Shown here piece after piece: positions 30,001-33,000 of a DNA stretch of 64,000 nucleotides; positions within the stretch are counted from its first letter, which is position 1; each line of letters opens with the position of its first letter. A program made the position numbers. The DNA is from Escherichia coli 042. Lineage in GTDB: Bacteria; Pseudomonadota; Gammaproteobacteria; Enterobacterales; Enterobacteriaceae. The stretch is from assembly GCF_000027125.1 (NCBI RefSeq), contig NC_017626.1, one strand, 5' to 3'.

Positions 30001-33000
30001 AAACCACGCGTAACCCCCACGGTAAGTGATTAATTTCGATTATTTTTCCCGGATGGAAAATTCTTAGAAACCGATCACATACAGCTGCATTTATTAAGGT
30101 TATCATCCGTTTCGCTGAAAAACATAACCCATAAAATGCTAGCTGTACCAGGAACCACCTCCTTAGCCTGTGTAATCTCCCTTACACGGGCTTATTTTTT
30201 ACGCATAAGCCCTATCCCTGATAACCGTCTTCCATTGACCACATCGATAGAATCTCCCTTCATAGCACGATGCCTTTCACACAACGGCATCGTGCTCGCC
30301 CAGGTTCCGGCTACGCACAGCCAGAACGCGCATGTTTGACGCTTACCAAAAAATGAACCTAAAGCATTGGAATATTTTTGACATCATTTTCTGATGGCGG
30401 CATAAAATAAAAATGCTGCTTTAGTTTCATCTATCTGTTTGTCATTATTACTCACATTCAATAATGGTGTTGAAGAACAACTATCAGAGATAAAAATGAA
30501 TGTGTACATCGTAGTCTTGAATCTATTCTCGCTCTCCACATTTGAATGTCAGACGAGCGACGCCATGTAATCCTGCACCTTCTGTCTTCAGGTCAACTAT
30601 CTGCATTTTTTTGCCCTGAGTAACACAGAAATGAGCTGCATCATTTTTTACTATATTTTCTGCACCAGAAATTCTGCCCCTGGCTAAAGAAGCTTCGGCT
30701 TCGGTGTAGTATTGGTTATCGAGTTTACGCTGAATATTACTTTTATATGCAAGACCAAATTTACCGATACTTGTCTCATCATTATGTACAGCACACCCAG
30801 ACATAAGAAAAACACTAATTAATGATATAGCAGCTATCTTTTTCATCTCACCTTCCCCCATTAAATACCAACGACACGCTCTGGTGTTTAAATATAATAA
30901 TGGCATGATTATTATAATTGAATAGGATTATAATAAATGTTCTGTACAACATTTCCTACATAAGTAGGAATTACATACACGGATGCCTTCCGGGTAACCC
31001 CATGGGGGGGTTAATATATTTTTAATAGTATATTGAAGATGCCACTGTTTAGTTGAATATTAGGTATATGCTCTTTTTTGAAATTTATCGGTGGCTGCCG
31101 TTAACATTCACTGTCCCCATTGCAAGCTCCTGGTGGTAACCACTGAATCCTCTATACTTGAACTGACTTTTTATCCTCCGACTTTCATCCTGTTCTGACT
31201 CCACCTTTTCTTTTCTGCTCTACACTATCTACAGACCAATCATAAAGGCACATACGATCATGGCAGAATTTCCCGCCAGCTTACTGATTCTTAATGGCAA
31301 AAGTACTGACAATCTACCCTTGCGCGAAGCAATTATGCTGTTGCGTGAGGAAGGAATGACGATCCATGTGCGGGTCACCTGGGAGAAAGGCGATGCCGCA
31401 CGATATGTAGAGGAGGCCCGGAAGTTGGGCGTCGCAACGGTGATTGCCGGTGGTGGCGATGGCACCATTAATGAAGTTTCTACGGCGTTGATTCAATGTG
31501 AGGGGGATGACATACCCGCGCTGGGAATTTTGCCATTAGGAACCGCCAATGATTTTGCCACCAGTGTAGGGATTCCTGAGGCACTGGATAAGGCGCTGAA
31601 ACTGGCAATTGCCGGTAACGCCATTGCGATAGATATGGCGCAGGTCAACAAACAAACCTGTTTTATTAATATGGCGACAGGCGGGTTTGGGACGCGTATT
31701 ACCACAGAAACGCCGGAAAAATTAAAAGCCGCGCTGGGTGGCGTCTCTTACATCATTCATGGCTTAATGCGCATGGACACTCTGCAACCGGACCGTTGTG
31801 AAATCCGCGGTGAAAACTTTCACTGGCAAGGTGACGCCCTGGTCATAGGTATTGGTAACGGGCGTCAGGCCGGTGGCGGTCAGCAATTGTGCCCGAACGC
31901 GTTAATTAACGATGGCCTGCTGCAACTGCGCATTTTTACCGGCGATGAAATTCTTCCAGCTCTCGTATCAACCTTAAAATCTGACGAAGATAACCCGAAT
32001 ATTATCGAAGGCGCTTCGTCGTGGTTTGATATACAAGCCCCACACGAAATCACTTTTAATCTTGATGGCGAACCGTTGAGTGGGCAAAACTTCCATATTG
32101 AAATACTTCCGGCGGCGTTACGTTGTCGATTACCACCAGATTGTCCATTATTGCGTTAATCAAACTATTCTCTCTTGAACCAGGGAGAATCCGTAATGCC
32201 GGATGCGGTGTAAAAACCTTATCCGGCATACAGAACAATACTACACCGTAATTAATTTCACCCGTGTCTTCTGCAATGCCAGTTTATCCACCTCTGACAC
32301 AGCATCGTCGGTAATAATAATGTCGATTTTTTCGATTGGCAGTACCTGATTAAAACCGCGACGATTAAATTTCGATGAATCGAGAACGGCAATCACTTTA
32401 TTTGCGGCTGTGACCATCGCCCCGCTAATCGAATAACCTTCATTAAAGGTCGTAATACCATTAACCGCATCAATACCATCAGCACCGACAAACATTAAAT
32501 CGGCATTAATATCCTGCAATGAACGCTCGGCAATGGAACCATGCATCGAGCGTGTTTTATGGCGGACGGTCCCACCACAGACGACCAGAGTAATGTCTTT
32601 ATTTTCGGAAAGGGCAAATGCTGCCGGGAGACTGTTGGTAATCACCGTGATATTTTTGGCGGTCATTAATCCTTCGGCGATAAGCATTGTGGTACTTCCG
32701 CTGTCGAGAATAACGGTCATCCCTTCGTGGATCATTTTGACTGCCGCCTGCGCTATTCTGTTTTTTGGCGCACTGGCGAGCTGAAATCGCTCTTTAAACC
32801 CAACTTCCTGGGTCTCGGTTTCACTATTACCGGACATTATTTTCGCCGCACCGCCATGAAAGCGCGTAACCACGCCTTTTTGTTCGAGAAAGCGCAAATC
32901 GGCACGGATTGTCGCTTCCGAGGCAGCAAATACTCCCGCCAGATCCTGAACAAGCACGGTTCCCTGTTCATTCACTAATTGGATGATCTTATTCCTTCGC

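What the first reader, a model, noticed from the sequence alone, without database searches (positions are those of the whole stretch)
30995..31014. C4-ATG-G7 palindrome in the divergent yegR/yegS promoter region
The sequence taaccccatgggggggttaa is an imperfect palindrome with an uneven homopolymer pair (C4 versus G7) in an otherwise AT-rich intergenic region. It could be a regulator-binding site or a slippage-prone tract affecting expression of yegR or yegS.
Basis: seen in the sequence. Interest (0 to 1): 0.2.

Follow-up and report, generated by a model that had tools for sequence, protein, structure and literature searches.

The report
Variable poly-G spacer near yegR
The palindrome is a strain-specific version of the most variable stretch between two E. 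coli genes: its G-run changes length between strains (5 to 11), nothing indicates it is a control element, and the likely regulator site is a conserved EvgA box 25 bases away.

Summary
The sequence is present as described, at 30995-31014: TAACCCC-AT-GGGGGGG-TTAA. It lies in the 413-bp AT-rich region between yegR (-) and yegS (+).

As a palindrome or as a G-run it is no more than chance would give in this window. It folds no better than shuffled sequence and matches no Rfam family.

It sits in the most variable 60-70 bp of an otherwise conserved intergenic region. Most E. coli carry G5 or an interrupted run there. A sister Escherichia species has no palindrome. No hairpin register shows covariation.

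The G-run does vary in length. G7 is exact in 360 of 5,426 complete genomes and G6 in about 220. In a 46-genome sub-clade, a T-to-G change lengthened the run and lengths range from 7 to 11.

The run lies outside every predicted -35/-10 pair in this allele. It also lies outside the invariant EvgA-type box at 30953-30970.

Best reading: near-neutral spacer DNA with an ordinary slippage-prone homopolymer. A regulator site or terminator is not supported. A role as an expression switch is untested and unlikely. Interest is low.

The parts
30995..31014 (.). The reported imperfect palindrome TAACCCC-AT-GGGGGGG-TTAA. As a hairpin it has 7-bp arms (TAACCCC / GGGGTTA) and a 5-nt loop. As duplex DNA it is the 10-bp palindrome CCCCATGGGG plus three extra G.
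   Evidence: Sequence read. Flagged as terminator-like on the + strand. Folds no better than shuffles. Not unusual among inverted repeats in the window.
31004..31010 (.). G7 homopolymer, length-polymorphic between strains (G5 to G11).
   Evidence: Allele-specific blastn counts over 5,426 complete genomes. Variants fetched and read. Metagenome contigs gave 10 x G7 and 1 x G9.
30998..31001 (.). C4 run, the left arm of the core palindrome. It reads CTCC in K-12 and O157 alleles, CCCT in L010 and CCTC in L011.
   Evidence: Alignments.
30967..31042 (.). Hypervariable patch of the yegR-yegS intergenic region that contains the palindrome. It includes a 9-bp indel at about 31020-31028 (TTTTAATAG-like), present here and absent from K-12 and O157 type alleles.
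   Evidence: Mean pairwise difference is 0.12-0.27 in the patch, against 0-0.06 in the 120 bp to its left and 0.02-0.07 just to its right. Alignments.
30953..30970 (.). Invariant 18-bp inverted repeat TTCCTACA-TA-AGTAGGAA, an EvgA-type box 107-124 bp upstream of the yegR start codon. This, not the palindrome, is the likely regulator site of the region.
   Evidence: Matches TTCYTACANNTGTARGAA at 15 of 16 positions and is the only match of at least 13/16 in the 64-kb window. The same pattern hits upstream of safA, ydeP, emrK/evgA, frc and yfdX in MG1655. The arms are kept while the spacer changed in a sister species. A review states that EvgA binds the yegR promoter (PMC8147483).
30523..30846 (-). 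yegR, a small lipoprotein-like gene reported as part of the EvgA acid-response regulon.
   Evidence: ORF; RefSeq annotation; literature.
31260..32159 (+). yegS, a lipid kinase gene that is induced with the Rcs envelope-stress regulon.
   Evidence: ORF; annotation; transcriptome papers.
30871..30915 (+). Two overlapping sigma-70-like matches (ACGACA-16-TATAAT and TTTAAA-17-TATTAT) conserved in all alleles scanned. The second equals the yegS promoter guessed by Shimada et al. 2014. If either is active, the palindrome would lie about 75-110 nt into that transcript.
   Evidence: PMC3946193. These are consensus matches only, with no start-site data.
31078..31107 (+). Proximal sigma-70-like match (TTGAAA-18-TAACAT), an alternative candidate yegS promoter. 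The palindrome would then lie about 65-85 bp upstream of its -35 hexamer.
   Evidence: absent from the L005 allele.

Best explanation
The palindrome is not a dedicated element. It is one lineage's version of a weakly constrained, relatively G+C-rich spacer. That spacer lies between two independently regulated divergent promoters: yegR, with an EvgA box, on the left, and the Rcs-induced yegS on the right. In this lineage, substitutions turned the common ...CCCCATGGGGG-C/AC-TTTAA into ...CCCCATGGGGGGG-TTAA. This created a G7 run that behaves like any homopolymer under replication slippage. It is stable at G6-G7. It became unstable (G7-G11) once a further T-to-G change lengthened it in a sub-clade. 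The palindromic look comes from the short CCATGG/CCCCATGGGG core and from an older, decaying quasi-palindrome around it (CATGGAGGCCC-TTCC-GGGTAACTCCATG in O157-type alleles). Such sequences are known mutation hot spots, which would explain the clustering of changes here. What is shown: the location, the non-conservation, the length polymorphism, the lack of structural or statistical signal, and the position outside predicted promoter hexamers and outside the EvgA box. What is inferred: that the variation is neutral or nearly so, and that slippage or template switching produced it.
For: (1) The 20-mer sits in the diversity peak of the intergenic region, 30967-31042 (alignments). (2) An evenly spaced sample of 5,424 matching records shows about 10% window-like alleles. 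The rest carry GGGGGAC, GGGGGC, GGAGGC or GAGGGC at this position. (3) A sister Escherichia species keeps the EvgA-box arms and the downstream block but has unrelated sequence in place of the palindrome. (4) No covariation above shuffles for the hairpin of the finding (cells paired reached by 244/500 shuffles, score by 84/500). The same holds for the larger inverted repeat and for the core palindrome. (5) The fold is no better than shuffles, there is no Rfam hit at E<=1, and the palindrome and G-run are not unusual for the window. (6) Instability depends on length. G7 is exact in 360 genomes, against 1 with G6 and 0 with G8 in the same 41-43-nt context. In the 46-genome 'TAA' sub-clade the match spans correspond to about G7:1, G8:3, G9:7, G10 (plus G9-TTAA):31 and G11:4. 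(7) Metagenome assemblies carry G7 on four flanking haplotypes, plus one G9. (8) No promoter-like -35/-10 pair spans the run in this allele. The locus is single-copy and not derived from a mobile element.
Against: There are no transcription start-site, 3'-end, footprint or reporter data for this allele, so a regulatory effect is not excluded. A terminator-like hit exists on the + strand in window-type alleles. In K-12-type alleles a promoter-like site on the - strand (TAAACA-18-TATATT) ends directly next to the C/G run. The O157 allele shows one compensatory pair (CTCCATGGAG). Some G9-G11 counts could be homopolymer errors in long-read assemblies. Against that, near-identical genomes share the same length (E50, E67 and E20 share one span; SX4 and SX48 share another), and one metagenome assembly independently carries G9-TAA.
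Confidence: 0.7

Rival explanations
1. Contingency (phase-variable) tract. Slippage in the G-run would change the spacing or helical phasing between upstream regulator sites and one of the divergent promoters. That would switch or tune yegR or yegS expression, as homopolymer tracts do in Bordetella fim and in Neisseria porA/opc promoters.
For: The run is length-polymorphic, G5 to G11. Related strains differ by one G: MRY15-131 has G9 and MRY15-117 has G10. It lies in a regulatory intergenic region, 33 bp beyond the EvgA box.
Against: At G6-G7 the length is clade-fixed (360 against 1 and 0). No predicted -35/-10 pair spans the run, and it is outside the EvgA box. Most E. coli have only G5 or an interrupted run, so any switch would be confined to about 1% of genomes. 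To my knowledge, repeat-length phase variation is not an established mechanism in E. coli.
Confidence: 0.08
2. Weak intrinsic terminator or attenuator on the + strand. It would stop transcripts that start at the promoter-like sites at 30871-30915 before they reach yegS. That would leave either a short RNA of about 100-120 nt or a regulated yegS leader.
For: A terminator-like hit (7-bp stem, 5-nt loop, tail ATATATTTTT) in the window and in a G10 allele. Conserved promoter-like sites lie upstream on the same strand, one of them the published guess for the yegS promoter (PMC3946193).
Against: The T-run starts 6 nt after the stem. The fold is no better than shuffles. There is no terminator-like hit in K-12 or L005 alleles, which lack the T-run or the stem. 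There is no covariation and no Rfam match. No yegR or yegS entry appears in the held supplements of the E. coli K-12 3'-end map (PMC7815308), though K-12 lacks this allele.
Confidence: 0.07
3. Palindromic operator for a dimeric transcription factor acting on yegR and/or yegS.
For: Dyad symmetry (CCCCATGGGG; TAACCCC/GGGGTTA) in a divergent promoter region. The CCATGG core is kept in most E. coli alleles.
Against: The arms vary freely between lineages and are absent from L011 and the sister species. In the same sequences the EvgA-box arms are invariant. The uneven C4/G7 breaks the symmetry. There is no match to the EvgA pattern here, and no RcsAB-box-like match (<=3 mismatches) anywhere in the intergenic region.
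Confidence: 0.05

Closest known systems
Intergenic mononucleotide simple-sequence repeats mutating by replication slippage
   Same: A G/C homopolymer whose length differs between strains. It is stable when short (G6-G7) and increasingly variable when long (G8-G11).
   Different: Nothing beyond the usual behaviour was seen, and no link to gene expression is shown.
Promoter homopolymer phase-variation tracts (Bordetella pertussis fim C-tract; Neisseria porA and opc G/C-tracts) - recalled from general knowledge
   Same: A poly-G/C run in a promoter-containing intergenic region, near an activator site, with inter-strain length variation.
   Different: In those systems the tract sits between the -35 and -10 hexamers, or between the activator site and the -10, so each length sets promoter strength. 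Here no predicted promoter spans the run. The run lies on the far side of the EvgA box from yegR. Most strains have too short or interrupted a run.
EvgA box of the EvgS/EvgA acid-resistance regulon (targets safA-ydeO, ydeP, yfdX, frc, emrKY, yegR)
   Same: It occupies the same intergenic region and is also an inverted repeat.
   Different: It is a different sequence (30953-30970), 25 bp to the left, and is invariant. The reported palindrome does not match the EvgA pattern.
Rho-independent terminator
   Same: A G+C-rich stem followed by a T-rich tail on the + strand in this allele.
   Different: The T-run is displaced by 6 nt. There is no upstream gene on that strand. It is not conserved in other alleles and is not more stable than shuffles.
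Quasi-palindrome template-switch mutation hot spots (described in E. coli by Ripley and by Lovett; recalled from general knowledge)
   Same: Overlapping imperfect inverted repeats show clustered, sometimes paired, substitutions. For example CCCCATGGGG, CTCCATGGGG and CTCCATGGAG occur in different lineages.
   Different: The mechanism is inferred from the pattern only, and the single compensatory pair is not above the shuffle controls.

Membership tests
Phase-variable promoter homopolymer (contingency locus) | Tract length differs among closely related strains | tested here: met
   Every length from G5 to G11 was seen. Within the 46-genome sub-clade the match spans run from 41 to 45 nt. At G7, however, 360 genomes are identical against 1 with G6 and 0 with G8.
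Phase-variable promoter homopolymer (contingency locus) | Tract lies between the -35 and -10 hexamers, or between an activator site and the core promoter, so that length sets promoter geometry | tested here: not met
   No sigma-70-like pair spans 31004-31010 on either strand. The run lies distal to the EvgA box relative to yegR. This rests on consensus scans only; no start-site data could be obtained.
Phase-variable promoter homopolymer (contingency locus) | Length changes switch expression, and clonal populations are heterogeneous | not testable with these tools
   Needs reporter fusions and deep amplicon sequencing.
Rho-independent terminator | Stable G+C-rich hairpin immediately followed by a U-tract | tested here: inconclusive
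   Passes a permissive scan, but the T-run starts 6 nt after the stem and the fold is not better than shuffles.
Rho-independent terminator | Conserved at the orthologous position and placed at the end of a transcription unit | tested here: not met
   No hit in K-12 or L005 alleles. There is no upstream + strand gene and no covariation.
Palindromic transcription-factor operator | Dyad arms conserved across strains and species while the spacer or flanks vary | tested here: not met
   The arms vary or are absent. The EvgA box in the same alignment shows the expected pattern (helix 1, 98.7% paired).
EvgA box (applied to the neighbouring repeat at 30953-30970, not to the finding) | 18-bp inverted repeat matching TTCYTACA-NN-TGTARGAA upstream of an EvgA-regulon gene | tested here: met
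   Matches at 15/16 positions and is the only hit in 64 kb. The pattern was recalled from memory, then checked: it recovers sites upstream of safA, ydeP, emrK/evgA, frc and yfdX in MG1655. yegR is listed as EvgA-bound in PMC8147483.
EvgA box (applied to the finding itself) | Match to the EvgA pattern | tested here: not met
   No window position other than 30953-30970 scores at least 13/16.
Any described RNA family (Rfam 15) | Covariance-model match | tested here: not met
   Only CyaR (30112-30197) and two weak REP-like naRNA4 hits appear in 28000-34000 at E<=1. Nothing falls in the intergenic region.

The most novel reading that the evidence does not exclude
In the sub-lineage where the run has grown to G8-G11, the tract may act as a true contingency locus. 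Slippage would change the helical phasing between the EvgA box / yegR promoter and the yegS promoter region (for example within an H-NS or activator complex). This would give heritable, reversible variation in expression of an acid-stress or envelope-stress gene. It would be repeat-length phase variation in E. coli, a species in which, to my knowledge, that mechanism is not established.
Probability: 0.05. Interest if true: 0.5.

Novelty: new member of a known kind. Interest (0 to 1): 0.12.

Why it matters
It matters little. The practical value is in correcting the picture of this promoter region. Anyone dissecting yegR or yegS regulation should target the invariant EvgA-type box at 30953-30970 and the conserved block right of 31043, not the palindrome. 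The G-run is a natural length-polymorphic marker, stable at G7 and unstable at G9-G11. It could serve as a neutral slippage reporter or a typing character. It is also a place where homopolymer assembly errors should be expected. Only if tract length turned out to change expression would it become an unusual case of repeat-mediated phase variation in E. coli.

Tried and rejected
- Rfam scan of 28000-34000 at E<=1: only CyaR and REP-like hits, nothing in the intergenic region.
- RNA folding of the hairpin on both strands: not better than shuffles. The wider 86-nt region scores z = -2.3, but that segment includes the perfect EvgA inverted repeat.
- Covariation tests of three registers (finding's hairpin, larger inverted repeat, core palindrome): none exceeds the controls.
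- RcsAB-box search (pattern from memory), prompted by yegS being Rcs-induced: no match with <=3 mismatches in the intergenic region. I make no claim about where RcsB binds.
- Mobile-element origin: phage and plasmid searches gave only a prophage record carrying host flank and mislabelled chromosomal records. The locus is single-copy per genome.
- Small ORFs across the run (MGGLIYF* on the + strand, MGLPGRHPCM* on the - strand) and the upstream MIIIIE* 'leader': read by eye only. The two across the run have no visible ribosome-binding sequence and would be frameshifted by the length variants. MIIIIE* loses its ATG in L011. All three rejected.
- Start-site and 3'-end data: nothing for yegR or yegS in the held supplements of PMC7815308. 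The Cappable-seq GTF was cut before this locus. SMRT-Cappable-seq lists a yegR-b2084-yegZ operon but no coordinates. PMC151933 and PMC4288677 are not held.
- yegR homologues in other genera (L016-L018) sit in a different gene context and give no information on this region.

Full report
**Observation**

Window 30995-31014 reads TAACCCCATGGGGGGGTTAA. The parts are C4 (30998-31001), AT (31002-31003) and G7 (31004-31010).

The window is E. coli. Positions 30800-31300 are 100% identical to strain LC-1302-2020, whose RefSeq annotation gives yegR and yegS on either side. The local layout is:
- trhP/yegQ (+)
- cyaR at 30112-30197 (Rfam)
- yegR at 30523-30846 (-)
- a 413-bp intergenic region with 37.8% G+C, against 50.7% for the window
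- yegS at 31260-32159 (+)

The K-12 prophage remnant ogrK-yegZ is absent from this strain.

**Is it more than chance?**

No.
- The window has 85 perfect inverted repeats with 7-bp arms and loops of 0-8 nt, against 41.6 +/- 7.5 in Markov-1 simulations. This palindrome is one of many.
- There are 4 G or C runs of at least 7, against 4.3 expected.
- The 46-nt hairpin folds at -11.6 kcal/mol on the + strand (z = +0.34) and -10.3 kcal/mol on the - strand (z = -0.18), no better than shuffles.
- No Rfam family matches the intergenic region at E<=1.

**Comparison between strains**

A 501-bp query matched 5,423 of 5,426 complete E. coli genomes, nearly always once per genome. I fetched eleven records taken at even steps down that ranking; ten span the whole intergenic region and were aligned.

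The intergenic region is highly conserved except for one patch. Mean pairwise difference is 0.12-0.27 across 30967-31042. It is 0-0.06 over the 120 bp to the left and 0.02-0.07 just to the right. The palindrome sits inside this patch.

The alleles at the palindrome position are:

| Allele type | Sequence |
|---|---|
| Window type | CCCCATGGGGGGGTTAA |
| L005/L006 type | CCCCATGGGGGACTTTAA |
| K-12 type | CTCCATGGGGGCTTTAA |
| O157 type | CTCCATGGAGGCTTTAA |
| L008 | CTCCATGAGGGCTTTAA |
| L010 | CCCTATGGGAGCTTTAA |
| L011 | CCTCATAGGAATTATTTAA |

K-12 and O157 types also lack about 9 bp (TTTTAATAG-like) just downstream.

By the row spacing, window-like alleles make up roughly 10-12% of genomes. 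The GGGGGAC type is about a third, and the K-12/O157 type about half. These shares are estimates from an evenly spaced sample.

A sister Escherichia species (L014) keeps the neighbouring inverted repeat and the downstream block. It has unrelated sequence where the palindrome is.

**Covariation**

On an 11-allele alignment, none of three registers exceeds the shuffle or slide controls. These were the finding's hairpin, a larger inverted repeat seen in O157-type alleles, CATGGAGGCCC-TTCC-GGGTAACTCCATG, and the core CCCCATGGGG. The single compensatory pair (O157 CTCCATGGAG) is what shuffles give about half the time.

**Tract length**

I used 41-43-nt queries built so that any reported alignment must span the run. 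The context was CTTCCGGGTAACCCCAT-Gn-TTAATATATTTTTAATAG.
- G7 is exact in 360 genomes.
- G6 in the same context occurs in 1 genome.
- G8 in the same context occurs in none.
- A separate clade of about 220 genomes has G6 linked to a CGGATAAC substitution (L004).
- In a further group of 46 genomes, a T-to-G change at the 3' edge gave ...Gn-TAATAT. Their match spans are 41 (1 genome), 42 (3), 43 (7), 44 (31) and 45 (4).

The members I fetched read G7, G8, G9, G10, G10, G10 and G11. One G9-TTAA genome also falls in the span-44 class.

Near-identical genomes share a length: E50, E67 and E20 share one span, and SX4 and SX48 share another. MRY15-131 (G9) and MRY15-117 (G10) differ by one G.

A scan of public metagenome contigs gave 10 x G7 on four different flanking haplotypes and 1 x G9-TAA. 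The alleles are therefore also seen outside the complete-genome set.

The run is thus a real length-polymorphic homopolymer. It is stable at G6-G7 and unstable from about G8. That is the ordinary length dependence of slippage.

**What else is in the region**

The invariant 18-mer TTCCTACATAAGTAGGAA lies 25 bp left of the palindrome, at 30953-30970. I recalled the EvgA consensus TTCYTACA-NN-TGTARGAA from memory and then tested it.
- In MG1655 it picks out sites upstream of safA, ydeP, emrK/evgA, frc and yfdX (two sites).
- In the 64-kb window its only match of at least 13/16 is this 18-mer, at 15/16. Shuffled windows give 0.65 such matches.
- Its arms are unchanged in all alleles and in the sister species, where only the 4-bp centre differs.
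- A review lists yegR among promoters bound strongly by EvgA (PMC8147483). yegR also rises with other EvgA-regulon genes in a transcriptome study (PMC5811628).
- The box lies 107-124 bp upstream of the yegR ATG. The safA box lies 112-129 bp upstream of its ATG.

yegS is induced with the Rcs regulon (PMC3599342, PMC2731931, PMC5105897). I could not locate an RcsB site.

Shimada et al. list an RNA polymerase SELEX peak with H-NS in this spacer and guess promoters by sequence (PMC3946193).

**Position relative to promoters**

Consensus scans find + strand sigma-70-like sites at 30871-30898, 30887-30915 and 31078-31107. None spans the run on either strand.

In K-12-type alleles only, a - strand site (TAAACA-18-TATATT) ends right next to the C/G run. 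This is Shimada's guessed yegR promoter. The 9-bp insertion destroys it in the window allele.

The + strand terminator-like call (stem TAACCCC/GGGGTTA, tail ATATATTTTT) appears in window-type alleles. It does not appear in K-12 or L005 alleles.

No experimental start-site or 3'-end data for this locus could be retrieved.

**Interpretation**

The most economical reading (about 0.7) is near-neutral spacer DNA between two independently regulated divergent promoters. Overlapping imperfect inverted repeats and a homopolymer make it mutation-prone. This lineage happens to carry a C4/G7 version.

The rivals are a contingency switch (about 0.08), a weak + strand terminator or attenuator (about 0.07) and a palindromic operator (about 0.05). 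Each fails at least one conservation or geometry test, but none is formally excluded without expression data.

**Comparison with known systems**

The run behaves like any intergenic mononucleotide repeat. It resembles promoter phase-variation tracts of Bordetella and Neisseria only in being a poly-G/C run in a promoter region. The defining geometry of those tracts, between promoter elements, is not met.

I found no description of this locus as a variable tract in the literature searched. It is at most a new, minor member of a well-known kind.

**Verdict**

Interest 0.12.

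Noticed in passing
window 30953-30970: Invariant 18-bp inverted repeat TTCCTACA-TA-AGTAGGAA. 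It matches the EvgA-box pattern at 15/16 positions and is the only such match in the 64-kb window. Its arms are conserved in a sister Escherichia species while the central 4 bp changed. It is the likely EvgA site driving yegR.
   Followed up: yes
window 6008-9326, G9 run at 6421-6429: dgcE (yegE, diguanylate cyclase) is split into two overlapping ORFs (6008-6541 and 6300-9326) by a +1 frameshift in a G9 run. None of 5,378 matching genomes has this exact 81-mer. Most sampled matches are one base shorter, and strain LC-1302-2020 reads GGGGGGTG with an intact gene. This is either a real inactivating slippage mutation or a homopolymer assembly error.
   Followed up: partly
window 6008-9326 versus 30800-31300: The window is 100% identical to strain LC-1302-2020 around yegR-yegS but about 3% divergent in dgcE (93 of 2,896 positions after the G-run). 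The window therefore comes from a different strain, with a mosaic relationship to LC-1302-2020.
   Followed up: partly
window 30198-30522: The P2-like prophage remnant of K-12 (ogrK, yegZ; 'cryptic prophage PR-X') is absent between cyaR and yegR. Another strain (L012) has an integrase gene there. A phage record (ON470606.1) carries yegR-yegS as host flank, consistent with the 3' side of cyaR being a phage attachment site.
   Followed up: partly
window about 30974-31004 (clearest in L007, O157-type): A larger quasi-palindrome, CATGGAGGCCC-TTCC-GGGTAACTCCATG, overlaps the reported one. A direct repeat CATGGAGGC occurs twice in O157-type alleles. It is degenerate in the window (CACGGATG-CC...CCCCATG), which also has GCC where all other alleles have GCCC.
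   Followed up: yes
window about 31020-31028: A 9-bp indel (present here, absent from K-12 and O157 types) is flanked by TATAT repeats. Its absence creates a - strand promoter-like site, TAAACA-18-TATATT, that exists only in K-12-type alleles. Its presence creates the T-run of the terminator-like hit.
   Followed up: yes
L011 (strain G12), corresponding to window about 31115: A divergent E. coli lineage carries a roughly 70-bp insertion in the yegR-yegS intergenic region. In strain VL7S7 (L012) an IS1 lies directly after the first 220 bp of the intergenic region and yegS is missing.
   Followed up: no
window 30907-30927: ATGATTATTATAATTGAATAG would encode MIIIIE*, which looks like an Ile-rich leader peptide. 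The ATG is lost in L011, and the stretch overlaps TATAAT-like promoter hexamers, so it is probably a by-product of AT-rich promoter sequence.
   Followed up: partly
window 32193-32228 and 28020-28060: Weak sub-threshold matches to naRNA4 (a REP-derived RNA family) suggest REP elements between yegS and gatR and upstream of trhP.
   Followed up: no
L001 172-766 (upstream of trhP, about window 27970-28570): A ParD/ParE-family toxin-antitoxin pair lies directly upstream of trhP in strain LC-1302-2020, the strain identical to the window around yegR-yegS. K-12 has yegP at that position.
   Followed up: no
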